A DNA stretch of 62,342 nucleotides, the filler included, from Sphacelaria rigidula (lineage: Eukaryota), in assembly GCA_964200075.2 (NCBI GenBank). It is 8 parts of 8 records of this genome, joined end to end, with 100 filler letters (N's around TTAATTAATTAA, not from the genome) between each part and the next. Parts side by side here need not be neighbours in the genome. Positions count along the whole stretch, not along the records: positions 15,613 to 23,318 come from CAXNAA020013729.1; 7 more parts are not named here. One strand, 5' to 3'. Positions 2,842 through 60,814 of this stretch are shown one piece after another; the first letter of the stretch is position 1, and every line of letters begins with the position of its first letter. The translations under genes and the position numbers were made by a program. The notes beneath the pieces were generated by a model. It saw nothing but the letters and a program-made list of their open reading frames with translations. It was not told the origin of the DNA and did not search any database.

Positions 2842-3304
2842 ATATCGGTATTAGTGCTAGTGTTAGTGCTGGAAATAGGGCCCAGCAAAACCTGCTGGAG
2901 AGGATTTCGGCGGAGGAGTCTGGAGGGCTCTGGCAGCTGTGGGAAACATGAGAAACCACGGGCGCGTGGAGAGGGTTCCAGCTGAGGCACCTGCAGAAAG
3001 GTGGCTGGCCTGTGGTTGATCCAGACTGGAGACTTGCTGAAGCTGCGTGCAGCGGGAGTTTGGAGGCTCCTACGACTGTCTGATACGGCAGCGGAGCAAG
3101 AAAGTGTGTAATTTGCGAAGGTCCGCTCGCCTGCGAAAGGTTTGCAGGTAGCAGGTTGCAGCTGTGGCGACCTGCTCGTGTAGTACGACCAGCGTGACGC
3201 CCGTGGTTATGCGGGAAGAGTTGCGACCTCCCCAATTTGGGGATAGGTACTGCGAGAGTGCATCTCGCACTTTTTATACGGAGTACTAGGAGTACAGAAA
3301 GCGT

Positions 3305-4500
3305 GTGGAGCACGCTAGCGCAGGGGATGCTGTGCGGCATCAGGAGGTGTCAATGACTCAACAAGTGCCAACTCATGTGCAGAGAGTATTTGCTCGTCTG
3401 GAGCATAAAAACAGCACAATCACCCCGCCGCAATTGGTTGCGGCAATCACAAAGCATGCTGGGCATGCGGTGAGCACTTGCCACTGTTGTGGCCAGGTCG
3501 GCCATTACGCGCGCGATTGCCCAACGTCTACCGGTGGAGAATCTGGGCAGTCTCATGCCGCGCGCCATCAGCATCGTCAGCACAAGGGCAAAATACGAGG
3601 TAATCGGGGTGACGGCGGCAGATCCTCCGACGGTGGAGGGTCGCAGTCGAGTCCTCAGCAGCAGCACCAGCAGTACCAGCAGCACCAGCAGCAGGGGCAG
3701 CGACGTCAGCATAGGTCTGGTTCTGGGTCCGGCGCTGCTGTAGGTGCTGCTGCTCCACAACGGGCGGTGCAGGTGGGACCGACTTATATAGTGTCGAACA
3801 CTACGCCGGCGCCGACGATGGCGCCGTTGGCGACACCGGCAGCAGCACCGGGCACGACGCCTGCTGACGCGGTGGTCGGAGGTTCGCCAAGTTCTTGGTC
3901 TGCTGGCTGGGGATCATACCCGCGAGCGGTGCCGTTTGAACCTTCCAGCGTGTCTTCGCCTGTGCAGCTTGCGCAGCCGTGGCGTCAAGTGGGATTAGCG
4001 GCGCATCGATCGGCGAATGAAGTGCCAGCGGAATCTGCGCACAAATATGTTCCTGCGGAGCTGTGTCTTCCCAATCAACGGGAGCGTGGAGCCATTGCGG
4101 TTCGGGCTAAGTGGGATTCTGGCGCCCACTTCACGGGTCACGTGAATCTGTCGGTACAGATTGTAGAGATGATGGAACGTCTTCTCCCAGGTGTGCCGCT
4201 GCGCAAGCTGTTTTCGCTCGGGGTGCGGCAGGCCGTCGCGCGTCGGGTCAGCATGTTTACATCACAGAGCCTACTATTCCGCTGCAGCTGACTTTCACGA
4301 CTTCCTGGGGGGCGGCGTCGTTGCCTCCGATCTCGTTTGCGATCATGCCAGGGTCGGATGGCGTCATTCTTCTGGGGTTGCCGACGCTTCAGGATCTTAG
4401 AATCGACGCTCGGCGGTTGTGGGACTCCATGAGACGCGGATATCTCCGCCTGGTCCACGCTTGGAGACGCTCGCCTTTTGGGGCAGTCGCCGCGTGAGCT
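3305..4500 (+). pseudogene. gag (CCHC zinc knuckle) and aspartic protease remnant
   Basis: CHCCGQVGHYARDC knuckle. WDSGA protease-like motif, then frameshifted TTSWG...FAIMPGSDGVILLG. Confidence 0.8.
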
Positions 4501-6907
4501 TGTCGGTGGATGCTTTTCAGGAGGCTGGGGAGCAGGTGGCTGAGGAGCGGGATGCGGCGGTGGAACGCTTGGTAAAGGGCGGTCCGGAGATGTTTAAGGT
4601 TCCGGCGGAAGAGGAATCCGCTCGGAAGGTCGCGCTGGAGGAGAGCGTGACGGACGCTGTGGCGAAAGGCCTTAGCGTTTCAAAAGCGGAGCGCCTGCGC
4701 GGCATATTGCAGTGCCGCGTCAACACGTTTCGTCGTGCGCTGCGGGGTGATCCCCCTGCGCGCGTGGAGCTCATGCGTGTTCAGCTAAACCTGGGGCGTC
4801 CGCGGCGAAGACGAAGCCGCGGCCGTGCAATCCACTGAAGTCGAGTTGGTTGGCGTTGTGCATGGCGGCTCTTTTGGCGCTCGGGTTGGTGTTACGGAAT
4901 TTTCAGGCGGGGTGGTCCAGTCCAGGTATGGCGTTTCCGAAGAAGGCTGCATCGTGGACGGAGGGCAGGCTGTAGGCGTGGGCGGTAGCGAAGGATCTGG
5001 TGGCTTATGCCATGACGCTGTTCCATCCTCGTCCTGATTGTCAGGTGTTGATGTTTTCGGATGCATCTAAGCGCCATTGGGGTAGTGGTCATGCGGGTGC
5101 CTACAGTTGAAATGCAAAGGCCTGTGCGCGCTGTGGTTGTGTATGGTCCGTGTGAACCTGATGACTCGATGCCGTCCAAATCTGTTGTCCGCCAAGCGCA
5201 ACGAAAAGACCTTAGGGGCCAAGGTGCGGATGTGCAATCTTTCGAGTCGGACGCTGGTACTGTTATCTTGGACGATGAAGCTCTGTTTCGTGTGCATGTG
5301 CGTGGCCGAAACGTTTTGTGCATTCCGAGTTATGACAAGCAGTTGCAGGTACATCTAAAGATTTGCGCGCACATGTGCGACGCCGAGCATCGTGGTGTGA
5401 CTGCGACGCTCAGGCGCTTGCAAGAGTTTTGTGTCTGGCAGGGGATAGAAACTCATGTGCGCGAGTTTGTCCGCCAATGTCTTCACTGTACTGACTCGAG
5501 GGCAGGCGATGTTGTTCCCCGTCCGCTCGGCGAAACGGTCCATGGGACTATGCCGAATGAAGTCGTTCATTTTGACTTCTTGTACGTGGGCGAGAGTGAT
5601 CCGCTAGCTTCCAAAGGTTTGTGGGAGGATGCTGGGTTTCGATACATTTAGGTAACTATGGATGATTTGAGCAACTTCGTGTCTCTGGAACCAGTGGCAG
5701 TGTGTGCTGCTGAATCGTCTGCTGCATCTTTGCTGAATCGGTGCAAACCTTTGGGGGTGCCGCGTGTGTGGGTGAGTGATACCGCCACGCATTTCAAGAA
5801 TGTGATCTTGGCTCGATTACGAGAGGCTTTGCACGTTGATCTCCAGTTTGCGGTGGCGTATTTTCCATGGTCTAACGGTACGTGCGAATGCATGGTTAAG
5901 GAAGTAGTTCGTGTTTTACGGCGGATATCGGCTGTATATATAGTAGGCGTCTCGAATTGCGCGCGGCATGTGTAGTAGGTTTTATTTCATTCGCATATTG
6001 GTGTTATTTTCCTATTTGACGTACTCCATCCGGGCCCCTGGCCCCTCACATCGTTTTTAGCTACCTAGCAAGCCTAATACCAAAGCTATCAGCCACCACT
6101 TGGAGAGATCTCGCTTGCAAGTAAGTCGAGAGCACTTCTCTGCACGTGAAAGTGAGTCTATGTTTTATCATATGAGAATACGCTTTAGCTTATGATGCAG
6201 TGCTGATTCGGACTCAAGGGTCTGTTAGCCACGAGCTTGAGAGTCACTTCTCTCGACTACAATCATTCATTGTGGCCAGCCGCTGGCTTCGTGCCACCCC
6301 TGGCCTGGTATGTTCCTTGAAAGTGATACCCGTATCACCTCGTGACCATACCAAGACACGTGCTCTTCGCTCCATTCTTCTCGAGCAACGTAGAGCGGTT
6401 CCCGAGTGGGTGGACGTGTTGCCTGCGGTGCAATGGGCGCTCAATACAGCTTATCGTCGTCGTTACGATAGTACGCTGTACCACGTACGTGATGTTTGGC
6501 CGTGCACGTGGACTGGTCCATGGAGAGTGGTTGGGGCTCACCACCCGCACGTGTTCGAGATTCAGAACATTGTTTCGGGTCGTGTTCAGACCGCACATGC
6601 AAATCGTTTGCGTTTTTATGCAGACTCGCAGCTTAATGTTACGGCCGACGTTAAGGACGTGTTCCAGTATGCTTTAAATCATATGCAATTTCATATGGCT
6701 GGTATTGTCCGAGTGGCAGAAGCAGACGATCGTTGGTTGATGTTGTTGGTCCACTGGGCTGGTTTCGAAGTTGAGGAGCGTACGTGGGAGCCTTTCAAAG
6801 TTATTTTTGAGGCCGCTCCGGAATTTCTTTCGAAGGAGCTGCGTCAATTGCGCATGACTCGTGCCGTTTCTGCTCGCACCACGAGTGAGTTTGGTATTCA
6901 GTTGTAA
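4500..6907 (+). pseudogene. pol remnant: RT N-terminus, RT-RNaseH connection, integrase and chromodomain, with stops, deletions and a nested insertion
   Basis: NPLKSSWLA...WSSPGMAFPKK (to ~4945) jumps to LFHPRPDCQVLMFSDAS. Integrase motifs AHMCDAEHRG, CLHC, VHFDF, WVSDTATHF, WSNGTCE. Chromodomain LVHWAGFEVEERTWEP. Stop at 6907. Confidence 0.88.
5912..6358. mobile_element. ~447-bp insertion (probable solo LTR) interrupting the integrase
   Basis: Removing it restores KEVVR|ALRSILLEQRR. Ends TGTTTT...AAGACA. Flanking CG (or CGTG) duplicated. Confidence 0.65.
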
Positions 6908-7706: not shown

Positions 7707-7806
7707 NNNNNNNNNNNNNNNNNNNNNNNNNNNNNNNNNNNNNNNNNNNNTTAATTAATTAANNNNNNNNNNNNNNNNNNNNNNNNNNNNNNNNNNNNNN
7801 NNNNNN
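7707..7806. other. Artificial spacer N44-TTAATTAATTAA-N44 (same at 15513-15612, 23319-23418, 31124-31223, 38929-39028, 46734-46833, 54539-54638)
   Basis: Seven identical 100-bp spacers with a six-frame stop linker, spaced 7805-7806 bp apart. Confidence 0.98.
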
Positions 7807-7903: not shown

Positions 7904-9636
7904 CAATCGATCAACCAACCCCTGAACTAACCAACTCACCAATCAATCAAACAATCAATTAACAAACCCATTCATCAATCCATCCATGAATTCATCGATC
8001 GATTGATCGATCGATCGATCCATAAATCAATCAATCCATCAACCAATCGATCAATCAATGCATCAATGAATCAATGAACCAACCAGTGAACCAACCAATC
8101 AATTAATTGATCAATCAATCCACCCATCAATCAACCAATGAACCAATCGATCAATCGATCAATCAATCAATCAATCAATCAATCCGTTGATCCATTGACC
8201 AATCAATCAATTAGTCAGTTACACAACGAATCAATCAATCCATCCATCCATCGATCATCCGATCAATCAACCCATCAACCAATGAATTAATCAATCAATC
8301 AAATCATCAAACAATCCATCGACCATTTGATCAATCAATCAATCGATCAAAGTATCAAACAATCCATCCATCATTCGATCGATCGATCGATCGATCGATC
8401 CATCAATAGATCAATCAATCCATCCATCAGTTCATCAATCCATCAATCTACTAATCAATCAATCAACTCACCAACCAATCATCAATCAACGAACCAATCG
8501 ATCCACCCAACAATCAACGAATTAACCAATGAAGCGACCAACCAACCAATCAATCAATCGATCGATCAATGAATAAACTAATCGATCAATGAATCAATAA
8601 AGCAATGAACCAACCAATCATCGACCAATGATCCGATCCATCAATAATCAATCATTCCCTCAACCAAACCATCAATGAGTGAATTGATCAATCGACCAAT
8701 CAACCAATCAACCAACCGACCAACCAATCGATCGATCCACCCATCAATCACTGAATCAATCAATTCATCAAACAACTCATCCGTCAATCAATCGATCAAT
8801 CAATCAATCGATCAATCAACCCATGAATCAGTTCATCAACCAATGAACCAACCAACCAACCGATCGATAAATCAATCAACCAACCAACCAACCCATCCAT
8901 TGATCAATCGATCGATCGATCTATCGATCCATCCATTAATCAATCAATCGATCTATCAATCGATCGATCAAGTAATCAATCCATCAATCAATCGATCAAT
9001 CAATCAATGAAGCAGCCAATAATCAATCAATCGATCAATCAGTCCACCCATCAATCGATCAATGAACCAGCCAATAATCAATCAATGAATCAATCAGTCC
9101 ACCCATCAATCAATCAATTAACCAATGAACCGACCGACCGATCAATCAATCAATCGATCGATCGATCCATCCATCAATCCATCCATCAATCAATCGATCA
9201 ATCGATCAATCGATCAATGCATCAATTAACCAACCAATCATCAACCCACGAATCAATCAATCCATCCATCATTCAACCCATCAATCAATCAACCAATGAA
9301 ACAACCAACCAACCAATCGATCAATCAACCAATCAACCAATCAACCAATCAATTCATCAATCCATCAATCGATCCATCGATCCATCAATCAATCCATCGA
9401 TCAATGAATGAATCAATGAATGAATCGATGAATCAATCGATCAATCGATCAATCAATTGACAATCAATCGATCAATCGATCAATCAATTGACAATCGATC
9501 GATCAATCAATCAATCAACCAATCAGCGAATCAACCAGCCCAACCATCAATCAATCAACCAACCAATGGACCGACCAACCAATCGATCAATCAATCCATC
9601 AATTAACCCATCAATCAATCAATTAACCAATAAACC
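7904..9636. repeat. Degenerate tetranucleotide satellite (ATCA/ATCG/ATCC/ACCA)n, left part
   Basis: Continuous 4-bp periodic low-complexity sequence. Confidence 0.95.
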
Positions 9637-11092: not shown

Positions 11093-11218
11093 AACCAACC
11101 GACCAATCGATCAATCAATCAACCCATCCATCGATCCATCAACACATTAATCCATCAACCCTCCATCAATCGATCAATCAATCAATCAATCGATCAATCA
11201 ATCAATCAATCGATCAAT

Positions 11219-11269
<51 letters not shown>

Positions 11270-11830
11270 CCAATCCACCAATCCACCAATCCACCAATCC
11301 ATCAATCAATCGATCGATCGATCGATCGGTCAAACCATCCGTTCATCAACCAATGAATGAATGAATCAATCAATCGATCGATCGATCAATCAATCAATCG
11401 ATCGATCAATCAATCAACTAATCGATCAATGGATCAATGAATCAATGAATCAATGACCTGATCAATCATCAACCAATGATCCGATCCCTCCATTCATCAA
11501 TCAATTCATCCATCAATGAACCCATCCATCCATCAATCAACCAATCAACCAACCAATCGATCAATCAACCAACCCATTCACCAATCCATCAATCCACCAA
11601 TCAATCGATCGATCGATCAACCCATCCATCAATGAATCAATGAATCAATGAATCAATGAATCAATGAATCAATGAATCGATCGATTAATCAATCAAGCAA
11701 ATGAATAAATGGATGAATTGAATGAATGGATGAATTGAATGAGTGAATGGATGAATCCATCCATCCATCCATTAATCAAATCAAATCAAATCGATCAAAC
11801 CAATCAATCGGTCAGTCAAATCAATCAATC
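11093..11830. repeat. Degenerate (ATCA)n satellite, right part
   Basis: Same 4-bp periodicity as 7904-9636. Confidence 0.95.
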
Positions 11831-15512: not shown

Positions 15513-16684
15513 NNNNNNNNNNNNNNNNNNNNNNNNNNNNNNNNNNNNNNNNNNNNTTAATTAATTAANNNNNNNNNNNNNNNNNNNNNNNNNNNNNNNN
15601 NNNNNNNNNNNNAAACAGTTCGCAAGTTGGGTTGCCCACTTGAGCCTCAATTCAGAGTTAAACCTCAATTCTCACAATTTGCTGTTCTTACATGTTTCTC
15701 TGAGATCGCTCATTTCTCTGGAAGATCGGTTGAGTCCACACAAATCTCGGCAATTTTTGTGGACTGGAGAGGTCTCCAAGAAAACTGCAAGTTTGGACTA
15801 GAAAAAGCCTGCGGCTGTCGAGAAAACGCACAGTTGTATTGGAATCGCATCAACGAGTACGGACAGGCATTCTTAAGGGTCACAATCCACCCACTACGGT
15901 GGCGTATAGTTAGTGAAGGCTCGACATCAAATTTCCATTTTTCGGGCGACGTGGACATTTTATAGCGTCAAGGAACCGCATCAATAAGGGTGTCACGCAG
16001 GAGCAGAAAGCACGACAAAAAACATGAACACGACGAAAGTGTGTTCGTTTCTTGATGCAATCAACTCAACTCTACAAGAGATTCAATCCGTCCACATGAC
16101 CCCCGTTCTCCTGAAACTCCCAAGTAACCATGGATTGAGGTCGGAAGCTCTCTGGGGTAGGGCCGGAAGTTAGGTATCCAGAGGTTCGAGTATGTAGCAC
16201 CCCGCGTAGTTCATAGTCCCCCATCTTGTTCCCACCTAGACTCCCCCGACATCCAGACCCAGACACGATATACTTGATGGGCCGGTAGCCGGCAAAACTT
16301 GCGCCACACGGCCGAGGAGGAAATCAATCGACATCAACATGATGAGGCCTTCATGTGAAACGAACTTTCCCTCTCTCCCTCATCCTGACTCTCGTTCAGA
16401 TATTCCCTTCAAAACTTGCAAACACCCATTACCGGTCAACCTTCCCCCTCTCATTTTCATCTCTCCCTGGTGAGTTTGGATCATTCATCAACATGTCCGT
16501 ATCTCTGTTGTACTCCCTTTTCTTTTCTCACCCTTGTAAGATGATCGAAATGTGTATACGCACTGTTTCGTGGTTCACGGAGAAGATAATACTCTACCCG
16601 ACTCTCGTGCACAGAGACGTCACTCATACTATCCCTCCGCCGAATATTACGCGAAAAAAAGCGTGCATCCGTCCTCTCATCAAC

Positions 16685-19135
16685 CTAGCTCCCTCTCGTG
16701 GGGAGAAAGGCCGGGGTCACGTGGCGAGAGGGGGCAGACACATCCCACTCCAACTTCACGTCGGTTCCCAATTTTTCAGATATCGCGCCAAACCCCGATG
16801 GCATATCAAGTGCCGACTTCACCGGCGCCGTCCGGCGTAGCCGCTTTATGTTCCTGTCATTGGTGATGCTACAACCGCATCTCTCGTTTCCGGTAGGGCT
16901 GCTGGAGCCGCCATGAGCCATGCTGTTGTAGATGCTGGATCGCCCAGTATCCAATTCGCTGGTTCGTATGCCATTTTCGACTCGCGCAGGCGCGACAGTC
17001 GTCTCCATCTTTAGTTTCATGCTCATCTCTACCTCACCTAAGGGAGCCCTATCTGCTGCCGTCGCGCCGTAGGACTGTCCTGGGGCGGCAGACGATGTGG
17101 TCGTAGTATTCGTTCCCTGTCGCCTAGCACGGATGACACACCAGCAGGGACGCGAATCAGCGTGATGGCTACTGTCGCTCGTGATGGGACCGACCGTTGA
17201 TGGGTGACTGACATTCTCATCCCGTCCATCAGTACCGACACCAGTCTTCCCTACGTCCAAGTCATAGTTTGGGCGTTTCTTCTCTCGCACATGGCCTGCG
17301 GCATCAGACGCCGTAGTCGGGTCATGTGCAGCGCAAACCAACGCCGTGTTGGCACTGACTGCACCGAAAGATGAGTGTGCGGAGCAACTCTCCTCGCCGC
17401 ACTGCCTGCTCACTACTTCGACCATGCTCACCCGTTCGTATGTAACGCAGTATTTCGCCCTTCTGCCACCGACTGTACCGAACGATGGGTGTGTGGAGCA
17501 GCCCTCCTCGCCGCACCGCCTGTTCACTACTTCGACCATGCCCGCCCGGGCGTGTGCGGCGCAGTACTCCGCCTCCCTCCCGCCGGATACACCGAACGAT
17601 GGTCGTTTTGAGCAGCTTTCCTCGCCGCACCGCGTGCCTACGACATTGATCATGCCTGCTCGGGCGTGTGCGGCGCAGTACTCCGCCTTCCTCCCAACGG
17701 CTGCACCAAACGATGGTTGTGTGGGGCAGCCCTCCTCGCCGCACCGTCTGCGGCTAATATCGACCATACCCGCTCGGGCGTGTGCGGCGCAGAACGCCGC
17801 TTTCCTGCCACCGACCGCACCTAACGAAGATTGTTTGGAGCAGCCCTCCTCACCGCACCGCCTGCTCACGACATTGATCATGCCCACTCGGGCGTGTGCG
17901 GCGCAGTACTCCGCCTTCCTGCCACCGGCTACACCGAACGATGGTTGTGTGAAGCAGCCCTCCTCGCCGCACTGCTTGCTCCTCACATCGACCATGCCCG
18001 CGCGGGCGTGTGCGGCGCAGAACGCCGCTTTCCTGCCACCGACCGCACCGAATGAAGGTCGTTTGGAGCAGCCCTCCTCACCGCACCGCAAGCCGACGAC
18101 ATTGATCATGCCCGCTCGGGCGTGTGCGGCGCAGAACTCCGCCTTCCTGCCAACGGCTGCACCGAACGATGGGTGTGTGGAGCAGCCCTCCTCGCCGCAC
18201 CGCCTGCGGCTAATATCGACCATATCCGCGCGGGCGTGTGCGGCGCAAAACTCCGCCTTCCTGCCACCGACCGCACCGAACGAAGATGGTTTGGAGCAGC
18301 CCTCCTCACCGCACCGCCTGTTCACGACATTGATCATGCCCGCTCGGGCGTGTGCGGCGCAGTACTCCGCCTTCCTGCTGCCGACTGCACCGAACGACGG
18401 GTGCTTGGAGCAACGCGTCTCGCCGCACCGCTTGCTCTTCACATCGACCATGCCCGCTCGGGCGTGTGCGGCGCAGTACGCCGCTTTCCTGCCACCGGCC
18501 GCACCGAACGACGGGTGCTTGGAGCAACCCTCCTCGCCGCACCGCCTGCTCACGACATTGATCATGCCCGCTCGGGCGTGTGCGGCACAGAACGCCGCTT
18601 TCCTGCCACCGACCGCACCGAACGAAGCTTGTTTGGAGCAACCCTCCTCACCGCACCGCCTGCTCACGACATTTATCATGCCCGCTCGGGCGTGTGCGGC
18701 GCAGTACTCCGCCTTCCTGCCAACGGCTGCACCGAACGATGGTTGTGTGGGGCAGCCCTCCTCGCCGCACCGTCTGCGGCTAATATCGACCGTACCCGCG
18801 CGGGCGTGTGCGGCGCAGAACTCCGCTTTCCTGCCAACGGCTGCACCGAACGATGGGTGATTGGAGCAGCTCTCCTCGCCGCACCGCCTGTGTACTACAT
18901 CGACCATTCTCGCTCGGGCATGTGCGGCGCAGTACTCCGCCTTCCTGCCAGCGGCTGTACCGGATGATGGTTGTTTGAAGCAGCCCTCTTCGCCGCACCC
19001 ACTCCTTATTGCATCAACCATACTTGCTCCTGCGTGTGTGGCGCGGAACGCCGCCTTCCTGCTACTGACTGCACCGGACGATGGCTTTGTGGAGCAGCCC
19101 TGCTCGCCAGACCACCTGCTTACTACATCTACCAT
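16685..19135 (-). CDS. EsV-1-7 cysteine-rich repeat protein, 816 aa, 16 tandem 38-aa repeats plus ~210-aa C-terminal tail
   Basis: Uninterrupted ORF. Repeat consensus MVDVVSRR-C-GEEG-C-SKQPSFGAVGGRKAEY-C-AA-H-ARAG = C-X4-C-X16-C-X2-H-X12, the motif of the brown-algal/phaeovirus EsV-1-7 family that includes Ectocarpus IMMEDIATE UPRIGHT. True start uncertain. Confidence 0.9.
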   Translation of the reverse strand: MVDVVSRWSGEQGCSTKPSSGAVSSRKAAFRATHAGASMVDAIRSGCGEEGCFKQPSSGTAAGRKAEYCAAHARARMVDVVHRRCGEESCSNHPSFGAAVGRKAEFCAAHARAGTVDISRRRCGEEGCPTQPSFGAAVGRKAEYCAAHARAGMINVVSRRCGEEGCSKQASFGAVGGRKAAFCAAHARAGMINVVSRRCGEEGCSKHPSFGAAGGRKAAYCAAHARAGMVDVKSKRCGETRCSKHPSFGAVGSRKAEYCAAHARAGMINVVNRRCGEEGCSKPSSFGAVGGRKAEFCAAHARADMVDISRRRCGEEGCSTHPSFGAAVGRKAEFCAAHARAGMINVVGLRCGEEGCSKRPSFGAVGGRKAAFCAAHARAGMVDVRSKQCGEEGCFTQPSFGVAGGRKAEYCAAHARVGMINVVSRRCGEEGCSKQSSLGAVGGRKAAFCAAHARAGMVDISRRRCGEEGCPTQPSFGAAVGRKAEYCAAHARAGMINVVGTRCGEESCSKRPSFGVSGGREAEYCAAHARAGMVEVVNRRCGEEGCSTHPSFGTVGGRRAKYCVTYERVSMVEVVSRQCGEESCSAHSSFGAVSANTALVCAAHDPTTASDAAGHVREKKRPNYDLDVGKTGVGTDGRDENVSHPSTVGPITSDSSHHADSRPCWCVIRARRQGTNTTTTSSAAPGQSYGATAADRAPLGEVEMSMKLKMETTVAPARVENGIRTSELDTGRSSIYNSMAHGGSSSPTGNERCGCSITNDRNIKRLRRTAPVKSALDMPSGFGAISEKLGTDVKLEWDVSAPSRHVTPAFLPTRGS
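17324..19135 (-). repeat. 114-bp coding tandem array, 16 units
   Basis: Exact 114-bp period (e.g. ATG of unit 7 at 18451, unit 15 at 17539). Terminal units are degenerate. Confidence 0.95.
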
Positions 19136-21169
19136 GCCCGCTCACAGGCGCAGAATTCCACTTTCATACTACATGCTCCAGCATATGGTGCTGTCGTTGT
19201 TCAACTCCTATAGGTGCATCCAATAGGCATCCTCCCCAAGGCAACAATAGAGAAGGGGTTAGGGCTGCGGTGGTCTCACTGCTGCTGCTGCGATCCGAAC
19301 CGTCTCAAATCCAACAGCAGCCTGCGCCAATTACCTTGCGAAAATAACCTGAGGTCGTGCACATGTGAATAATGGGTAAACGGTGATCATGGTATCCTGG
19401 TCGCAAATGGTTATTTGGACTAGAAGGGCTGACAAGCCAACCGTGGAGTCATCAGGTGACAAGGATCGCCGCTGTAGCAGGATCAATACAGGAGAGAGAG
19501 CATTGCATTGAAAAAAAGCCTAGTGCCGATACCGTGATTGCAGCGCGGTGGGACGACTGAAGCAAACGAAGCCATATTGCAGTGCGTCGGGACGACTGGA
19601 ACAAAGCGAGAGGCGTTGAAAGTGCCGAGGTCGCATTGTACACCTCGGCACTTTCAATTGTACACCTCGCATTCGGGGAATACATAGGCGAGACAGTCCC
19701 TTCATGTCAGTGATATCATATCCCCCAGCACCAAACTTTTGACGCCGAAAGCCCGTACCAGTCAGGTCATCATGTAGAGGTGGGCCGTATACGCCGATTC
19801 ATCGCGTGTTCAGCATACTGTCGCACGCTGTTGGTAGATATCACCCTATCTGTGTGGGTACGCAGAGGGTGGTCCACACTGGATGTGGTGGATGTGAACA
19901 CTGTCCGGGGAATTGTTCATGCTACTGCACTCGTTTCATGGCCCTCGCAAGGCGGCATGATAACAGCGAGTTGTGCTCACATCAATCGGTTCTGGCGTCA
20001 TCTGTATCGAAACGCCAGATACCTCTTAAAGGACGGAGGTATGCAGAAATGCACCCCTTAACAAAGTTGCTGTTACTTCTGTTGCTGACCCCTTGCCCGG
20101 AGAATGCAAGCACTGATACCTGTATCTCTTTGGCTGGGCGAACTGACGTCAAAGTAGCTCGCGTAATGTTGGGGTCGGATATATTCTTATACAACACCTC
20201 AAAACAGCAACGAGGATTAAAAAAACAACACATGCTCTCATCAAACGGCGTCCAACGGCACAAGTCATTCCCATGACACAAGACAGAGGTTGTCGATGGG
20301 CCATACGATGAATCTGCGGAGCTGTGCATCTACAAGGGCTGAAGGACCTGTGGCCCGTGCGTCAACCTCCCACGTGGTGCAGATGAGATGCACAGGACTT
20401 GATGTATCGGCATCAGGACTGCTCCGGGGTCAGAGTCATAGCGTGTGGATGCGCGAAGCACAAACAACCTAGCCGTGTCTTGGCTGCTTTGAATGACAAC
20501 ACTCCAGCGTAGTGTAATTATTTCGAGGGGAAGCTCGAAAGAGCATGCATCACGGAAACGCAAGCAATCGGCGGCTCCCCCATTTTGAGTACAGTACGAG
20601 CGACGCCCAGGGCGATAGAACATCGCTCGGAAGTGAGTGCAAGGCAAAAGACAACATGGTGGATACCATCTGTTATAACACAGGAGTGAATGACAAAGTA
20701 CTTTGTGATCGTGGAGAGGTTTGTAGCGTAAAACATAACAGTGTGCCGAACGAGGTATGCCGTGTTGAAGAGGAGAAGACGACGAGACCACCAGATCAGC
20801 TCACAAGGAGTGGTCAACGCAACATGATTGGTTGAGCTACTCAGAGGGGCACGGACGGTAAAGGTGTACCTCGGTGGAAAAGAAATCCACGCGTCAGTAC
20901 GGATCTTGGAAAACGAACTGCAGAAGCAATCATCAACGTCATGCCACAAACGGCACAGCATACTTCGCGGTAGATATAGAGATATGTCCCCGGTATTCGC
21001 TGATGGGTGAGTTGAGATACAGAGTGGGAATGTTAGCAAGAGAGCAAACCAAGCAAGGCTTCACACCCTCGACCAAACAATATGTAGCATGTATTGCTGC
21101 TAAACATTCTGCGCGTCGGGTGGTCAATATATATTCGGCGAGCAATATGATGGCACGAAAGATAGATCA

Positions 21170-21200
<31 letters not shown>

Positions 21201-22652
21201 GCCATTAATGTGTCAAAGATTGCGATATGCCATATATATCGACCGAACCATAAATCTCTAAACGCGTCACCTCAACATATATTGGCCGAGTCATATGGTG
21301 GTGCGGTAAAGCGCCAACATATACTGTCGAGTAAATATTGGTTACCACGTGAGATCAGTTCATGTTGCGATTCAATATTCTCAACACCCGAAGCGCCAAT
21401 ATATATTGACCAAACATGTCGTGCGTCAATGCGTCCGATATATATCGGGCGAGCGATACACGAGGGAACCGACCGTCACAGTACATATTGGTGTGGCAAT
21501 ATATAGATTTATCATTCAATATGCATATTGGCAAGTTGATTGGTTGATTGATTGATTGATTATCTCACATGAGCTGATTGCAACAATCCAGCCGGTGGTC
21601 AGGGGCAGCAGAAAAAGTATAGAGGAATTACTCGAATGTTTTGTTCCCAGAGCAAAAGCATGTACAATGTATAGTCATGACTACTTCACGATCATGATAC
21701 CACGAATATATGTTGTTGCTTCAACTTCCCCGAGGGACATCTCAACACAATCCATTTTGGAAAAACAATCTTTGCGCCGTCTCCAATCCAAAATTTCGAA
21801 ATCTCTAGCATCAAATGTTGGTATGATATTGGAACATACTTCGAATTATGATTCTATTCAGGGTACTGTATTGGCAACACAGCACCGGAGACCAGGGGGG
21901 TACCAACATGCGCATTCGACCCGCGTTTTCTGCCGCCGTGGTGCTTAGCCAAGATATATCACACACGGTGAAGTGGATGGGCGGCACCGCACCGGCAACC
22001 AGACACGCATCTGGATCTTTCTCAAAGGGTACACTCTACTTGTAATATCCAATATATTTTGAACGACCAATACATTGACACCCCCTGACCCCAACATATA
22101 TTGACCGGTCAATATGTTCTCATCAATGCAACCCTAGTTCATGTATCGGTCGAGCGATATGCCGTCGCCCACGCTATATGTGTGCAATCGCACGGTACCA
22201 AGGTATAATAGGCGGGAAACATGCATGCAATTCCACGACACCGTTATACATTTTTTGGTAGCGAAATACGTGTACACTCCAAGGGTACCAATATATATTA
22301 TGCCGATCACTACATGGTGGAAGTACCTTGTATTGCCCAGAACACGGGATTTTCCAAATCGGGGATAGATTCTTTGGGGGGGATGAAAACCCGGAGGATT
22401 AACCCTTTTGGGACCGGACCCTCACTAACACAGGGTTGACAACCCTGTGCTAGTGAAATAATCAAAAACTAGTGGTAAGCCACGGCTGACGCACGTGGCA
22501 GTACCGCCGCAGGTACCAACGCCACTGTTCTCGCACGGATGGTGATTCAGAACGAAACTGCGAGAAGAGAAAACGACCTTAACCGTAACTAAAAAATACA
22601 AAGTATAAGCAAATATGGGCTTCCAGCCCCACAGCTAACGTGATGAGCGTTA

Positions 22653-22956
22653 GACAAGCGGCCATTTGGCTATCCCCAAAATTCCTCCAGGGCGGTAAAC
22701 GTTTCGAGCCTCCAGAGGAACTGAACGCCTCTGGAGGGGTGCGCGGCCCTTCAAAGGAATACTTTTTTGTTGTTTCCAGAGGGATTAAACGCACCGGGAC
22801 GCTTGTTTTTGCCTCCGTAGGGGTGCGCGGCCCTCCAGGCCGGTAGTGTTTGATTTCCTCCAGAGGGATTCAAGGCCTGCGGAGGCTTGTTTTGCCTCTG
22901 AAGGGCCGCGCATTCCCCCGGAGGCATTTTGGGGGGGAGCCAAATGGCTGCGTGTG
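22653..22956. mobile_element. CACAC-terminus MITE with 2-bp TSD (same family as 31451-31783)
   Basis: Ends gacaagcggccatttggct...agccaaatggctgcgtgtg, flanked by TA/TA. Internal CCTCCAGAGG/CCTCTGGAGG motifs. Confidence 0.75.
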
Positions 22957-23810
22957 TAGGGGTGCCAAAGGCGGGGGGAGTTGCTAGCCTACGAAAAGTG
23001 TCCGGGGTGTTTGGCGACACTCTACTAACCATCCTGAACCATCGCCCCTTTTCGTTTGTTTCTTGGGATACACTTGATCTTAGACTACATCCTTGACAGG
23101 GAGAAACCGTGCGTGAAGGTAACGCTATTCCTGTTCAGACGCCGAATATACATCCGCACCAGTGAGATATTCCGGGGAGTGATGCTGCGATAGGGTCTGC
23201 GCTTTTGCGGCGTGAGAGGAAATCGGGATTTAGGCATGTCGAATCACCTTTGACTCTCACCACAGTTCTAAGAGCCTCAGGGTGGAACATGCATCCATGA
23301 CCCATGAGATAATTCCAGNNNNNNNNNNNNNNNNNNNNNNNNNNNNNNNNNNNNNNNNNNNNTTAATTAATTAANNNNNNNNNNNNNNNNNNNNNNNNNN
23401 NNNNNNNNNNNNNNNNNNTGTTGTTCCTTCCTTCTGCCGTTCCGCGGCCCCTCCGGCCACTGCTTGGCGGAGGGCCGGGGGGGGGGGGGGGGGGGGGGTA
23501 TAAACCGTTTTCCAGTCTGTAGGGCCCCTTGGTTGACTGTATAGCAGCCGGGCATATGGAACATGACTACGTATATGTATATTTATTCCGAATCGTTCCA
23601 CGGTAGGGGTGCACACTTTTTTCTGAAGCCGTGCACTGTCGGAGCATCCCTTGCGAGTATGCAATAAACAATATTCAGTATTCCTCTCACCTGCTAACCT
23701 TTATGGCCCGGGTACAATGCGCATGATTCACAAGTCCGTAGGTTGTAGGTCGACTGTAGTAGCCGGACATATGGGACATGAAGTGCTGTACGTATGTTTT
23801 TTGGCACTCA

Positions 23811-25820: not shown

Positions 25821-27134
25821 CGCAGCTGGTGATCAGCCGAGTAAGATATGCTTGGTTTAGGACGAAGCGACTCACAATTGAAAGAGGTGCTACCCTTGAT
25901 GTCAGACTTACGTCAAGCGTAGCACGCTCAGCCGGTTGTCAAACGTCTGTTGCTGGCATTTTTTCAGTACGTACACGACCGACCCTCCTCCAATACTAGA
26001 CGGATTTTCCTGGAGTACAGACCACTTTGTGTGGAAGAATGAGCAAGGGCTAGCGCCAGCGTGGTGAGCTTGTGTGGAGTGAGCTTGTGCATGCTTGTCT
26101 GGGCTCTGTTGTGTAGATGTAATGTGCTTTGGTCACGGTCCTCGTGCTGAGCGTTTAGACCTGATTCAACCTGTGTTCGGTTCAAAGAAACACCGCTCTC
26201 GGGAAAATGAGGTTCATGCGTGTGTTCTCCGTAAAACTGGAACATCCCGCTGTGGGCAAACAAACTGCCGTGCACACTGTGCTGTGGAACCCTTTTTATT
26301 CGTCCCGTCACCATACACGACCTGAAATATTTTCAAGAAGCATCAGAAAAGCCCACACGACTAGGTCTAGAGCTCTTCGCGCGGTTGCACTGTCAAGTAG
26401 GGGGTTTTATGTTCATAGTATTAAGTTGTTGTTGAGGCAGCGCCCACCCGATGCGACAGCTACACGGCGTAGCACAGACAGGCTTTTCTCTACGATTTGT
26501 AGAGTATCCGTGTACTACAGTACGAGCGTGCTGCCGCGATTATTACTCATGGTAGTCTCCGCGCATCACAGCCAAATGTATTTATATGTATAACTGGTTG
26601 TGCCCCATGCACAGTGATTACACAAGGCAGGGCATGTTCGAGCTGAATATCCCTCCTTCTATGCAGAGGTTGTCTCTCGACAAGAAATAACTATTCTGAT
26701 CCCTCTCCCCCAAAAGCCCGTCCAACCAGCGTCCGAGTAGCGGCCCGGGTGCTGAAGGGATACCCCAACGAGTCTGCGCGAGTCATGTCGGTAGCTACAA
26801 ATGCAAGAATAGAGGCCAGTTGTAATGACTTCACCTTTCCGCAAACCCGAGAAGGAAGAACAGGGTCTCGGCAGAGACGCCGATCATACTGGTTCACTTT
26901 CCTGGAAGTGTCCCGTACCCCCACTACAGTGGAGTAGTCAGCGCGGGGTATTCATGCAAGCGCTATACTCTACAACTCGTGTGGATGCACGCAGTCTCCT
27001 GTTCGCCACTCGACTGACCGAGCACACTTCTTTCGCCCATCTCTCGTCGTCTCCGCTCCGCATCCACCTCTAACAACAACGACGACGACCGCTGTGGCGG
27101 CGACACGAAACATACAACAACCGGACGCGCGCAG

Positions 27135-27410
27135 ACGGTGAGCGAAGCAACGGTATACGTGGATGTACCCGCGGGTACACGATCCAAGGACATCACGTGT
27201 ACCATCGAGCCCCGGCGACTCAGGCTCAAGATTAAATGCGCCCAAACGTACGACGTAGTCATTGACGGTGAGTTGCCGACTGCGGTATCAAGGGAAGACA
27301 GTATGTGGAGCCTCAACGACGGCAACGCCGTGGTGATTTCGCTGGAGAAGACGAAGCGGACCTGGTGGGGGAGCGTGGTGAAGGGGGACCCGGAGATCGA
27401 TACTAGCAAG
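27135..27410 (+). CDS. NudC-family co-chaperone, CS/p23-domain exon (internal; upstream exons not identified)
   Basis: cag| acceptor at 27134, |gtgaa donor at 27411, 92 codons: TVSEATVYVDVP...IDGEL...EDSMWSL...ISLEK...WWGSVVKGDPEIDTSK. Confidence 0.88.
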
Positions 27411-28344
27411 GTGAAATACTGCACGGTGACTATGCGATTTGTTGCGGATGAGGTGTTTTTGAAGTCAAGCGATCTTCGTAGTCGTCGTCGTCGTGGTTGT
27501 TGTTGTTGCAGGTGTCTTGCGTTTTTGAGCGTTTGGCAGGTTGCCTCTACTGCGATTGGTGAGCAATATAGAAATGTTGTGCTGGAGACAACGCCCATAT
27601 ATGCCCTCAAAATGCATGCGTTACTATCGTGGTTTTTCGCGGAGGTATGCTACTTGAGCCGTCCTTTCAGACGGTAACGTTACACACACGGGGGGATGTT
27701 GGCAGGGAGTGGCATCGGAAGCGTCTCAACAAACTGTTCTGTGAAGTCACTGACAGCCACGTGGTGTCCATTCCTAATCACATGCTCGTAAAAATACTTG
27801 GAAAAAAAGAAAAATTTTGCTGGATAAACACCAGTAGAGCATACGTATTGGTCGTGAAGCATGGTTGACGCGGTCGGTTACTTGATTTTAAGGCCGAAAC
27901 CGATTTCGGATCTTTAGAAGGGTTGACAGTCCCAAGTACTCCTAGCTTGCCCAGAGCGTGTTTTTTCGCCAGAACATGTTTTTTTTTGTCGGAACGTGTT
28001 TTTTCCGATATCGGCGCCGATTTGAGGCCTGCCAACGCACGCTTTGCCTAGCGCACCCTTTGCATCCCCCTTGTCCGAGGCTTTTTGTATGCTTTGGTCG
28101 GGGTTAGGGTTATGGTCAGCGTTAGTTTAAGGTTACGAATTTCCGAGAACGCTCTGTCAGCCATGTTTGACGACCAATGCGTAAGCCCGGTTCGTAAGCG
28201 CATATACACCAATACCAGAGAACTGCACAGCCGCACCCGCTCGCTCAGATTGTTTTCTGCACCCTTATTCCCTGTACATATTCTGAGCAATGTTGGCGAA
28301 TGCTTCTCATCACCTTGACCTACTCTTGATAAATGTGGACGCAG

Positions 28345-49243: not shown

Positions 49244-50295
49244 CCCCGCCTAGCCGGAAGATAACTAGGGCTGTTCATGCCGGTCTGCACCGGCACAGCA
49301 CGCGGGTGTAACTTTTCCAAAGCCAGCGGATACAAATCTACCCTGAATTCCTTCATGGTCGCCATGCCAAACAACACTACGTCATCGTTGCCAGGCATGA
49401 CCGTGAAAGTGGTTGGCGACATCTCCACAGCGCCCCACGGCGTTCGCACGCTTACTGCAATAGGCACTGTTTTATGAGAAACAGTCACGGGCGCACCCGT
49501 GGCGCTCTATGCCATTTGCGGTCCATTTTCAAATGGTCGCTGTAGCTGGGCGCATCCAAACTGTGAAGACATCTGTTGCAGCAACCCCACACTTTTTGAT
49601 GTGAGTGCTGATCCAGAGTCGAGAAAAACGCGAGCCATAAATGAACCAAAATAACCGGGTATAGATAGATCAGCGCGCAGGCATTCTGCGCTGCGGTCGA
49701 CAGGCACCACACCTGCCGAAGAAAAACTCTGGTTAGTACCTAGAGTCACTTGACGTCAAGGCAGCGCTCCAGCACTTGAAATCGATGCTTTTTCATCCGT
49801 CGCAACAGTGAAAGATACACCCGACACGAATCCTGCCAGCCCTATGGGTTGCGAGCCTTCCGCTCCAGCACTCCCCACCAAAGTATTTCCTCCTCCCACA
49901 TATGTTAGCCGCGCCGACACAGACGAAGCTGGAGATCTAGCGTCATCACTTGAAAACGCACTTTGGGACACAATGGCGGAGGAGTTACTATTCTCCGTCG
50001 CTTGGTTTCGTTTTTGGCGCCTGCCTCTGCACCCGTATCTCTGGTTGCTTCGACCTTGTCCGCCGTAACGACCGCTTCGAGATCTTGACCCATCTCTCGC
50101 ATTTCCTTGCGCGGCGCCTTCAGCGCGAGGCTTGGGGCAACTTCTTAAAATATGCCCATGGTCTCCACAATTGTAACACGAGCGAATGAACAACGCTCGC
50201 GAAGTCGGCAGCTGTTCTTGTTGCTTGCGCTCGCCATACTTTGACGTTTCTAACGGTTTATTCCAAACCAGCGGCATTGTTGGCGATTGAGCCAT
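49240..50295 (-). pseudogene. gag zinc knuckle and protease remnants
   Basis: CYNCGDHGHILRSC, VFLDSGS and RTPWGAVEM...FTVMPGNDDVVLFG in three short frames. Confidence 0.8.
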
Positions 50296-51720
50296 GTTCT
50301 CTATGACTCAAAACATCATGGATAGACTCTTGCCTTACTTGAGCGTCCCTCCAGCGGAGTGTGTTCCTCCAAACGCTGTGCGCTGTAAGCTGTCTTCCGT
50401 CTGCGGGCTGGACTGACTCTATGCTGCAGCCCAATCCCTCCTCAGCCAAGACTCCTCTAACAGAGTGCCGAACGAATAATATCTAGATATTATAGCCTCT
50501 GCCAGACGATCTGGACAAGATGGCTATTCAGTGAGGGGCTTCTCCAGAATCCATTGGCCTCACGCTCGATAAGAACTTCTCTTAGAGCTTCCATTCACGA
50601 AGTAAGCAGCTGCGGCCTGTACCTGCAGACATAGGCTACACAGCAAGGGTCATCTGTGATATGATGTGACTGCAGGACGTAGCCATGATCTTGGGCAAAG
50701 GTGACCTTGAATGATGGACTTTTTCATATTCAAATAGCGGAGAACTGACTGCCCCTTGAGTTGACGTCTACGGAGAGCATGTATTTGAATTCGAAAAAAA
50801 AGGTAGAAGTGACCCAACCATGGCATGAATTGAGGAACCCGGCTCTTGGGTTTTATGGTATGACCTCAGTTTATGATGATTAGTGGCGGCGAAATACCTT
50901 TGAAGCTGTAAACAGCCCCTACGACCTTCACTCTCTTTTCATTCCCGGTTTTTGGCTGCGATTCAACAGTTCCCCATTGGAGTATCTACAAACCGGAGGA
51001 AAGTGAGTCCCAGAGATAAGAGCGGTAGTCGGGCTGCTGTTTTGTCTGGTGTGTTTTAGTGATTAAGGCTTCGGCTTGTTTCGGTTTGTGTTGTATTTGT
51101 GTTCTGTAGCTGAAGCTGTAGATGAAGCTCGGATACAATCAATATTGTGAAACAAAAACGATGCTACTCTCGTCTGTGATTGCTTGTTGTCTCTTTGTGT
51201 GAAATACATGAGAGCGACTGTGGTCAGCCCGCGCTGCTGAGCTGAGTAAACAAACAACGTACACTGAGGTCTGAACCTGGAACAATCGTGAACACCATTC
51301 CACCCTTCTCAAGGTGCTTCACCCCTTATCTCATCACGTATCATCTACAGGATGCCCTTGTCCCCTGGTCATCATCCAGGATCCTACATGCTACATTTAC
51401 TACGCCTTGGTGTATTTTGGCTACAACCCCAAAATAAAAGGACGTAACTAGTAAATTACAAATAATAATAATGTATGAATATATAGTTCACTGTGAAGGG
51501 AGGAATCAAACGCAGCGAAACGCTACAGTAGTTGAAGGGTGGAAAAGACAAAATGATCAAGGCGTGACCCTTGCATATAATGTCTTATACAATTACGGAT
51601 GGCCAGGTGGAGCAGGCGGAGAGCCTCCTGCGGAAGTATCTGCAGACGCAATCTCTTACCTGATGTAAGTAGTATGTTTTGTGCGAGCTGACGTTTCAAT
51701 AAGGGTAATGTTATTTCTAA

Positions 51721-59573: not shown

Positions 59574-60212
59574 TCAATACGGCGGCATGGGTCGCCTCCC
59601 ATGCGTCCCCGGTGGCCCCGCCGGCGGCCCGCCATGATGACCAACCATGGCCATTCCCAGTGGTACCATTCCCACATGAGGATGGTGGTGTAAGGCCTGA
59701 TGGTGCTGAGCGTGCATGACCATGGTCATCCCATGACCATGACCGCCCGCATGAGGATGCCCCACCGCATGTGGACCAAGCCCTGCACCATCCGCCCCCA
59801 CCATCCCACCGCCCATGGAAATCCCGCCGTGAGTAGTCGCCAAGGGAATGCCCCCTGCACCCCCGCCGACGCCGCCCCTTCCGCCGGCGCCAGGTGCTAT
59901 TGGCCCCCCCGCTCGACCCCCCTGCAAAACAGAGCCGTTAACCCCTCCAGCGCCTGCACCACCGGCGCCGCTGGCGGTGCGATCGGCCCCTGCCCCGGCG
60001 CTGCCGGGGGTGCTCCTTGAAGACGTGGCTCGACCGAAAATGTCGACGAAGGCTTCGTCAAGGCAGCGTTTGACGTCAGAAAAAGAGACAACGAGGAGGG
60101 ACCGCTTGTCGCTGCTGGTGAGGAGGATTTTTTCTTCATCGCCGGCGTCGAGGCGGGCCAGCGATTGATAGATGTGCCCGAAGTCCATCACCGGCTCGCC
60201 CTCCGCGTTCAC
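59574..60212 (-). CDS. PAN3: PAN2-PAN3 deadenylase subunit PAN3, terminal exon (knob end plus low-complexity tail)
   Basis: tcag| acceptor at 60213. VNAEGEPVMDFGHIYQSLARLDAGDEEKILLTSSDKRSLLVVSFSDVKRCLDEAF matches the PAN3 C-terminal domain. TGA at 59574. Confidence 0.93.
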   Translation of the reverse strand: MNAEGEPVMDFGHIYQSLARLDAGDEEKILLTSSDKRSLLVVSFSDVKRCLDEAFVDIFGRATSSRSTPGSAGAGADRTASGAGGAGAGGVNGSVLQGGRAGGPIAPGAGGRGGVGGGAGGIPLATTHGGISMGGGMVGADGAGLGPHAVGHPHAGGHGHGMTMVMHAQHHQALHHHPHVGMVPLGMAMVGHHGGPPAGPPGTHGRRPMPPY

Positions 60213-60814
60213 CTGATTTTTGCGTGTGTATGCGTGTGTGTGTGCGTGCGTGCGTGCGTGCTCGCGTTTCTTGTGTGTGTTTCACGTGCTGCCTGTATTT
60301 TTCGATGTGGTGTATGCATTGAAACCACAAAACTGTAGCTAGCGTGCGATAGAGGGGGGGTGTTTGGCAACGTTCTATAACGAGGGTCACCACCCCGAAA
60401 GTTGAAAAAAAACGAAATGAGAAGCAGCGGAGAGGAGGGGAATGGGAGAAAACGCTTCGGCCACGGTTGATCCCACGAAAGATGGAGAGATGTGCAGGGG
60501 GCGTACCCATTTCTTGCCTGCCGTAGTCATTTGGCCATCGACCAAGCATCCCTTCCGAGGGGAGCGGGGGAGCGAGGGGATACACTCTCGCGCCCTTCCT
60601 CGATACTGGCACTGTATCAGCTCAAAACCTTCCGATGCGGCCAGAGAAAAACTATCCGTTCGAGAACGGATGGGTTACCGGACGCATCGAGCGAGAGACA
60701 AAGTGAGATGACATTGGCCAGAATTCCCGCCAATAGTTCAATCCACGCGATGGCCGGTTTGTACTGTATTGAGACAACATTTCAGGCAGAGCAGCGGCGA
60801 AAAGCGATCCGGAC

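What the first reader, a model, noticed from the sequence alone, without database searches (positions are those of the whole stretch)
17324..19135. EsV-1-7 array shows a fixed scaffold with clustered hypervariable positions: candidate TALE/zinc-finger-like modular recognition code
Seen: 16 units of 38 aa. The scaffold (C-GEEG-C, SFG, GRKA, CAAHARAG) is nearly invariant in units 2-14, and variation concentrates in two patches. Patch 1, the four residues after Cys2: STKP, FKQP, SNHP, PTQP, SKQA, SKHP, SKHP, SKPS, STHP, SKRP, FTQP, SKQS, PTQP, SKRP, STHP, SAHS (third position mostly Q/H/R). Patch 2, the five residues before Cys1: VVSRR, ISRRR, VKSKR, VVNRR, VVGLR, VRSKQ, VVGTR and others. The patches co-vary: VG(L/T)R always goes with SKRP, and ISRRR always with .T(Q/H)P plus AAVG. 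Established: the C-X4-C-X16-C-X2-H motif defines the EsV-1-7 family, shared by brown algae and their phaeoviruses, and includes the developmental regulator IMM. To my knowledge its ligand is undefined. Inference: basic CCCH modules with a small alphabet of Q/H/R/N/K residues could each read one or a few nucleotides, giving a programmable nucleic-acid-binding system, perhaps targeting transposons or viruses.
Basis: partly seen in the sequence, partly recalled or inferred. Interest (0 to 1): 0.78.

Follow-up and report, generated by a model that had tools for sequence, protein, structure and literature searches.

The report
Fast-evolving seaweed zinc-finger array gene
A brown seaweed gene strings together sixteen small zinc-binding modules whose fast-changing positions partly match those of giant-virus relatives that are joined to a DNA-cutting enzyme, so this large family of unknown function probably recognises DNA much as animal zinc-finger repressors do, although no binding and no code have been shown.

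Summary
The array is real: 16 units of 38 residues (Pfam EsV-1-7) in an uninterrupted 816-codon frame, one of a large brown-algal family. One core idea survives. Across 60 paralogous arrays (708 units), position 17 (third after Cys2) and position 6 change amino acid faster than silent sites (pN/pS 1.65 and 1.79; neutral simulations reach 1.29), position 5 marginally. In giant viruses, 61 of 66 complete array genes end in a Vsr/I-Bth0305I-like nuclease domain, and position 17 is again above 1 (1.63) with the same Q/R-rich alphabet. The algal proteins lack the nuclease and carry a drifting tail with conserved NLS-like and SUMO-consensus motifs (68 of 69). Best reading: a modular DNA-binding zinc-finger array used as a nuclear regulator, an analogue of KRAB zinc fingers, not a TALE. 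Binding, targets and any code are untested; the structure model was weak.

The parts
16685..19135 (-). Uninterrupted reading frame, 816 codons from the first in-frame ATG: EsV-1-7 array plus C-terminal tail
   Evidence: P0001
17324..19135 (-). 16 EsV-1-7 units of 38 aa (C9-x4-C14-x16-C31-x2-H34); units 2-14 and 16 keep all four ligands; fast sites are unit positions 5, 6 and 17
16688..17323 (-). 212-aa tail without a Pfam match, evolving near neutrally (dN/dS 0.8-1.0) apart from short motifs
17003..17014 (-). SUMO-consensus-type motif 1 (LKME), conserved in paralogues
   Evidence: the psi-K-x-E consensus is recalled knowledge
16832..16846 (-). Basic NLS-like motif KRLRR, conserved in the subfamily
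16748..16759 (-). SUMO-consensus-type motif 2 (VKLE), conserved in both subfamilies sampled
19136..19230 (-). Decayed first unit ('unit 0') behind the ATG used by other paralogues; it holds an in-frame stop shared with three paralogues (L031, L041, L069) and is out of frame with the array
   Evidence: identical contigs across it in two public runs
19240..20650 (-). Non-coding upstream DNA shared with paralogues (about 67-80% identity, no codon periodicity, 27 of 112 indels a multiple of 3); part of the duplicated segment, with ragged ends
15613..23318 (.). The genuine contig (G000:C13729); the rest of the window is other contigs joined by N-linkers and is not neighbourhood

Best explanation
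The gene encodes a tandem C2CH zinc-finger array that binds DNA in a sequence-dependent, modular way, with position 17 (and 6, perhaps 5) of each unit as specificity residues read in context, as in C2H2 fingers, not by a one-residue cipher. In giant viruses the same array is the aiming arm of a Vsr/EDxHD-like endonuclease; in brown algae the nuclease is replaced by a disordered tail with nuclear-import and SUMO-type motifs, making a nuclear regulator, most likely a repressor. Unit duplication, conversion and segmental gene duplication generate new arrays, and selection favours new residues at the specificity sites. SHOWN here: array, family, elevated amino-acid change at fixed positions in host and virus, nuclease fold of the viral partner domain, conserved tail motifs. 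INFERRED: zinc binding, DNA binding, nuclear location, SUMOylation, repression, and any transposon or virus target.
For: Position 17: dN/dS about 2.2 against pooled dS and p=3e-6 against its own dS in a codon-likelihood test on 60 arrays, 708 units; tree-free pN/pS 1.65 [1.41-1.90], position 6 1.79 [1.49-2.09], position 5 1.37 [1.14-1.65], all other sites at most 1.04. Neutral simulations with duplication and conversion: at most 1.29 in 36 sets. CpG-type steps are 13 of 179 codon-17 changes. Viral arrays: 61 of 66 complete non-redundant ORFs carry nuclease motifs; position 17 1.63 [1.40-1.91], position 19 1.68 [1.37-2.03]; site profile correlates with the algal one (rho 0.67, 34 sites); neutral maximum 1.29 in 50 sets. 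Viral C-domain model (pLDDT 79.5) matches Vsr 1cw0 (Z 9.6, rmsd 4.5, 128 aligned) and I-Bth0305I 3r3p (Z 8.6, rmsd 3.4, 95 aligned). 92 of the 150 best cluster representatives carry that domain. Q and R lead position 17 in both classes; D+E are 5 of 708. Units are net basic, +2 to +3. psi-K-x-E in 68 of 69 algal tails (6% in shuffles) and 30 of 58 nuclease-free representatives (5.0 expected, max 12) against 11 of 92 nuclease-bearing ones (21 expected). An Ectocarpus Tc1/mariner transposase has an N-terminal EsV-1-7 domain (PMC12477816, passage).
Against: No binding data exist in what I saw. Positions 5 and 6 are not significant against their own, raised, synonymous rates, and sites 22 and 33 gave positive calls in one subset through low site dS. 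The window's array alone has no significant site. Position 19, fastest in viruses, is mostly Ser in the alga (pN/pS 0.35) and position 6 is not clearly above 1 in viruses (1.16 [0.96-1.42]). Scaffold sites are only moderately constrained (many 0.4-0.9). Simulations are simple and arrays are related, so intervals are optimistic. I-Bth0305I itself draws most specificity from the centre of its site, near the nuclease (PMC3239194, passage), so an array fused to such a domain need not be the main reader. The tails are homologous, not independent.
Confidence: 0.55

Rival explanations
1. Strict TALE-like cipher: each unit reads one base (or a fixed short word) by residue 17 or the pair 6/17, independently of neighbours, so arrays are freely programmable.
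For: Exact 38-residue register in most neighbours; a few sites carry the selection signal; 6 and 17 change nearly independently after dereplication, as free modules would.
Against: 20 residues at position 17 and 162 distinct 6/17 pairs, far more than four bases need; fast sites are separated, and differ between host and virus (19); scaffold is not invariant; claimed co-variation vanishes (G6-R17 p 0.04 in all units, 0.25-0.53 after dereplication at 12 nt).
Confidence: 0.1
2. The array recognises proteins (viral or parasite proteins, or host partners) like a repeat-type immune receptor; diversifying selection reflects that arms race.
For: Diversifying selection on a few positions per repeat is also typical of LRR/TPR receptors (recalled); hydrophobic L, Y, I, F are common at 17; best, weak, fold neighbours are RING/LIM/ArfGAP-type zinc domains (Z at most 3.2).
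Against: The same site is selected in viral nuclease fusions; basic charge and near absence of D/E at 17; no signalling domain in the tail.
Confidence: 0.12
3. The array binds RNA (nascent or viral transcripts) in a sequence-dependent way.
For: Small Cys3His zinc modules often bind RNA (recalled); RAP-type RNA-binding domains are among the fold matches of the viral partner domain (FASTKD4, Z 7.6).
Against: The two best matches are DNA endonucleases and the viral domain keeps invariant acidic and His residues; transposase fusion; spacing differs from TTP-type fingers.
Confidence: 0.1
4. Non-specific basic nucleic-acid clamp; the variable sites are relaxed linker/loop positions and the excess is an artefact of conversion, codon bias or constrained silent sites.
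For: Positions 5-8 lie between predicted modules (strands at 20-22 and the next unit's 1-3); some codons have low synonymous diversity (site 21 at 0.3 of pooled); positions 5 and 6 have raised dS; tail drifts at dN/dS 0.8-1.0.
Against: Site 17 exceeds its own dS; 60 algal and 50 viral neutral simulation sets never reach the values seen at 6, 17 (alga) or 17, 19 (virus); the residue spectrum at 17 is similar in GC-rich algal and AT-rich viral genes.
Confidence: 0.1

Closest known systems
EsV-1-7 domain family of brown algae, including IMMEDIATE UPRIGHT (Pfam PF19114; bioRxiv 10.1101/2024.02.19.579948, bioRxiv 10.64898/2026.04.27.720984, PMC7457493; passages read)
   Same: Same motif, tandem repeats, large expanded family, no other Pfam domain; described as a possible novel class of zinc finger of unknown function.
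   Different: The passages read give no ligand, no site-specific selection, no SUMO/NLS tail and no viral nuclease fusion. IMM has five repeats and a unique N-terminal domain; this gene has 16 and a C-terminal tail.
KRAB and other tandem C2H2 zinc-finger genes of animals (recalled; search listing only)
   Same: Many paralogues, long array in one reading frame, decayed end units, birth and death (7 of 80 loci with split arrays), diversifying selection at fixed unit positions, likely repression.
   Different: Unrelated finger (C-x4-C-x16-C-x2-H, 38 aa, no helix in the model), no KRAB domain, effector-like motifs at the C-terminus, no target shown.
I-Bth0305I / EDxHD (Vsr-like) homing endonucleases (PDB 3r3p, 1cw0; PMC3239194, passages read)
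   Same: The viral relatives have repeated N-terminal modules in front of a Vsr-fold nuclease.
   Different: The window's protein has no nuclease; I-Bth0305I uses NUMOD repeats, not EsV-1-7 units.
TAL effectors (recalled)
   Same: Fixed-length tandem units with few fast sites.
   Different: TALEs are helical with a near-invariant scaffold and two adjacent variable residues; here cysteine-rich units, separated fast sites, broad alphabet, variable scaffold.

Membership tests
EsV-1-7 (PF19114) | Profile match above the curated cut-off | tested here: met
   651.9 bits against 25; 16 stretches
EsV-1-7 (PF19114) | Tandem C-x4-C-x16-C-x2-H units | tested here: met
   14 of 16 units complete
EsV-1-7 (PF19114) | Zinc binding by the Cys3His set | not testable with these tools
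   inferred from conservation; note that units were picked by these four residues, so their invariance in my counts is by construction
TALE-like cipher repeat | Variation confined to two adjacent residues on an invariant scaffold | tested here: not met
   fast sites 5, 6, 17 (19 in viruses); many scaffold sites at pN/pS 0.4-1.0
TALE-like cipher repeat | Superhelix with variable residues on one face | tested here: inconclusive
   model pLDDT 65.5, pTM 0.30; coordinates not available
TALE-like cipher repeat | One unit reads one base by a transferable code | not testable with these tools
   needs binding assays
KRAB / tandem C2H2 zinc-finger proteins | Cys2His2 finger motif and KRAB-type effector domain | tested here: not met
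   ligand order is C,C,C,H; Pfam at E<=1 lists only PF19114 and a sub-threshold DUF1490
KRAB / tandem C2H2 zinc-finger proteins (works-like test) | Diversifying selection at fixed positions of tandem fingers in an expanded family | tested here: met
KRAB / tandem C2H2 zinc-finger proteins (works-like test) | Binding and silencing of transposable elements | not testable with these tools
   no target data
EDxHD/Vsr-like homing endonucleases (window protein) | Vsr-fold nuclease domain | tested here: not met
   the 212-aa tail has none of the nuclease motifs
EDxHD/Vsr-like homing endonucleases (viral relatives) | Vsr-fold domain | tested here: met
   Z 9.6 to 1cw0, 8.6 to 3r3p, 8.2 to 3hrl; Foldseek alone gave no match at E<=0.001; atlas leads PvuRts1I-N 0.90, DUF559 0.87
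EDxHD/Vsr-like homing endonucleases (viral relatives) | Residue-level EDxHD active site and homing | tested here: inconclusive
   invariant D, E, D, E, H columns were not mapped onto 3r3p; mobility not tested
TTP-type CCCH RNA-binding finger | C-x8-C-x5-C-x3-H spacing (recalled) | tested here: not met
   spacing here is 4/16/2
Treble-clef zinc fingers (RING/LIM/THAP/WRKY19-like) | Shared fold | tested here: inconclusive
   best Z 3.2 (RING); sub- or near-threshold Zf_WRKY19 hits in some relatives

The most novel reading that the evidence does not exclude
EsV-1-7 arrays are a third class of natural programmable DNA readers beside C2H2 fingers and TALEs: giant viruses use them as the aiming arm of natural zinc-finger nucleases, and brown algae turned them into a KRAB-ZNF-like, SUMO-linked surveillance system against transposons and integrated viruses, with a residue-to-base code centred on position 17 (with 6 and 19) that can be read off and re-engineered.
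Probability: 0.25. Interest if true: 0.92.

Novelty: new variant of a known kind. Interest (0 to 1): 0.66.

Why it matters
EsV-1-7 genes form the largest orthogroup of brown algae and include a developmental regulator, yet have no known molecular function; how brown algae silence transposons is described as largely unknown, with H3K9me, H3K27me3 and most 5mC absent in Ectocarpus (PMC12477816). The results name the residues to test (17, 6, 19), a likely ligand (DNA) and a likely effector route (SUMO), which makes an open question directly testable. If a code exists, it would add a compact programmable DNA-binding scaffold and an independent origin of zinc-finger genome surveillance.

Tried and rejected
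Co-variation as a functional code: rejected; co-change of sites 5/17 was 106 against 104.4 expected, 6/17 146 against 133.9 (p 0.02, 1 of 14 pairs tested, uncorrected), mutual information 6/17 z 2.6 in 708 units but 0.3 in 325 dereplicated units. CpG decay as source of Q/H/R: rejected. Gene as part of a transposon with sharp ends: not supported; flank homology among 20 downstream and 20 upstream stretches fades at different points. Upstream coding exon (KRAB-like): not supported. Pseudogene: unlikely; the stop in unit 0 is shared by paralogues that keep long frames. Nuclease domain in the own genome: not found with two protein queries. PDB sequence searches with array and nuclease profiles: 0 hits. 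Pfam, NCBIfam, PHROGs do not name the viral C-domain. Array fold: no PDB match at E<=0.001, none at Z>=5; the viral library returns only EsV-1-7-like proteins, several labelled endonuclease. Expression: no RNA holder listed; two runs only guessed to be RNA, of one study, cover about 15.9-19.3 kb and fade beyond: not counted as evidence. An upstream hairpin at about 19620-19660 is private to this copy. The fold models were built from alignments without two viral loci; this leaves their depth slightly lower and nothing else open. No complex prediction was run (DNA cannot be given). The IMM paper (Macaisne 2017) is not held.

Full report
Observation. The stretch 17324-19135 holds 16 units of 114 nt on the minus strand, inside a frame of 816 codons that ends at 16685. 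Pfam EsV-1-7 matches 16 times. I number each unit from its Met: C9, C14, C31, H34. Fourteen of 16 units keep all four ligands. Variation peaks at positions 5-7 and 16-17 but is also present at 2-3, 23-24 and 29-30, because the array is a mosaic of two unit lineages. The window is a chain of about 7.7-kb contigs joined by N-linkers; only 15613-23318 (G000:C13729) is real context.

Family. The genome holds 4575 first-look candidates for the motif, of which 150 were scored, all above cut-off; 40 of 47 candidates were scored for the tail and all matched. The closest named relatives are brown-algal (Sphacelaria rigidula, up to 62% identity). I fetched 80 paralogous loci, 40 sharing the tail and 40 top Pfam hits: a sample, not the whole family. 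Arrays lie in single long frames; 7 of 80 loci are split. Paralogues share non-coding flanks with ragged ends, as expected from segmental duplication, not from an element with fixed ends. A decayed first unit upstream of the ATG has a stop shared with three paralogues, two of which show frames of 730 and 775 codons and one 712, so the loss is old and the downstream frame has been kept.

Co-variation. Units 4, 9 and 13 (ISRRR) differ by 4-7 nt; the VG(L/T)R rule rests on two units; neither motif recurs in the other 80 loci. Across 578 closest-pair steps, changes at 5 and 17 coincide as expected by chance (106 against 104); 6 and 17 show a slight excess (146 against 134) that disappears in dereplicated units; the G6-R17 pairing also fades on dereplication. 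The co-variation is ancestry.

Selection. From 1135 strict algal units I kept 708 internal units of 60 arrays with an intact tail. A codon-likelihood grid on within-array trees gave dN/dS above 1 against pooled dS only at positions 5, 6 and 17 (1.8, 1.8, 2.2), in both subfamilies; against each site's own dS only 17 held in the full set (p 3e-6), while 22 and 33 came up in one subset through low dS, and the window alone showed nothing significant. A tree-free count on close pairs gave 1.37, 1.79 and 1.65, with bootstrap intervals above 1, and at most 1.04 elsewhere. Neutral simulations with duplication and conversion reached at most 1.29 in 36 matched sets and 1.44 (site 5) in 24 less well matched sets. 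So 17 is robust, 6 likely, 5 marginal. CpG steps explain 13 of 179 changes at codon 17. The alphabet at 17 is Q180, R148, H106, K65, L62, Y57, T23 and 13 rarer residues, with D+E 5 of 708: rich in residues known to read bases (recalled), but not small.

Viral relatives. Three scans of viral contigs gave 109 loci; 106 were analysed, giving 69 non-redundant array ORFs, 66 complete, 61 with nuclease motifs. The model of this C-terminal domain (pLDDT 79.5) matches Vsr endonuclease (Z 9.6) and the homing endonuclease I-Bth0305I (Z 8.6), followed by a DUF559-like protein and RAP domains; Foldseek alone was not significant. In 28 nuclease-bearing arrays (213 units) positions 19 and 17 are above 1 (1.68, 1.63), 6 is 1.16; neutral sets reach 1.29. 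Position 17 is thus under apparent diversifying selection in both host and virus, with Q and R leading in both; position 19 is fast only in viruses. Among the 150 best of 8433 cluster representatives, 92 carry the nuclease domain. I saw the fusion, before the look-up that showed six earlier scan notes on it; two of those found no fixed-position code, one found four fast spots.

Tail. The algal tail drifts (dN/dS 0.8-1.0) except for a basic motif (58 of 69) and psi-K-x-E motifs (at least one in 68 of 69, two in 54 of 69; 6% and 0.2% in shuffles). These tails are homologous, but the motif also marks 30 of 58 nuclease-free representatives at 50% clustering (5.0 expected) and is depleted in nuclease-bearing ones. 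That these are SUMO sites and an NLS is inference from recalled consensus.

Structure. Five window units folded with 116 own-genome rows gave a low-confidence model of small strand-and-loop modules without helices; no PDB match is significant, the best being RING-like at Z 3.2. Positions 5-8 fall between modules. Whether 6 and 17 share a face could not be tested.

Mechanism. Most likely (0.55) the units are zinc fingers that read DNA in context, serving as aiming arm of a nuclease in viruses and, with a nuclear/SUMO tail, as regulators or repressors in the alga; new specificities arise by unit duplication, conversion and selected change at 17 and 6. The direction of transfer between virus and host was not tested. 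Rivals are protein recognition (0.12), a strict cipher (0.10), RNA binding (0.10) and relaxed sites with an artefactual excess (0.10).

Literature. I read passages with 'EsV-1-7' in 5 of the 9 papers listed, passages of PMC3239194, PMC12768974 and further passages of PMC12477816; some searches were seen as listings only. These call the motif a possible new zinc finger of unknown function, report 95-335 genes per genome, expression biased to unicellular stages, and one transposase fusion; none of the passages reports site selection, the tail motifs or the nuclease fusion. The founding IMM paper is not held, and no supplements were seen; either may bear on novelty.

Verdict. A known family with a newly supported mechanism: real diversifying positions and strong architectural hints of DNA binding, but no TALE-like code shown. 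Interest 0.66.

Noticed in passing
window 7707-7806, 15513-15612 and every ~7.8 kb after: N44-TTAATTAATTAA-N44 linkers: the window is a concatenation of unrelated contigs, so gene neighbourhood across them is meaningless.
   Followed up: yes
window 3290-6904 (+): Broken LTR-retrotransposon remnant with zinc knuckle, integrase zinc domain and a weak chromodomain match.
   Followed up: no
window 7940-9631 and 11104-11756: Long degenerate CAAT-type tetranucleotide arrays (425 and 150 copies).
   Followed up: no
window 27018-27674 (+); 49759-50307 (-); 59577-60281 (-): Exons matching a CS domain, a zinc knuckle and the Pan3 pseudokinase domain, on other contigs.
   Followed up: no
P0046; P0151; P0136: EsV-1-7 arrays in one predicted protein with a Sir2 domain, with a resolvase N-terminal domain, and with what looks by eye like a different nuclease-type tail; gene models unchecked.
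   Followed up: partly
BFVD row A0A481Z3W0: A Pithovirus protein labelled DNA primase matches the array model over 80 columns.
   Followed up: no
L114 and L124; L110 and L113: Close paralogues with very similar tails have clearly different strings of 6/17 residues and unit numbers, i.e. arrays turn over faster than tails.
   Followed up: partly
window 19275-19292 (-) and paralogues: A CAG-repeat run just upstream of the start, conserved and longer in several paralogues; a CAGCAG upstream motif is mentioned in the 2026 preprint's methods.
   Followed up: no
window 15613-15690: A short high-copy repeat at the contig end, shared with unrelated loci.
   Followed up: no
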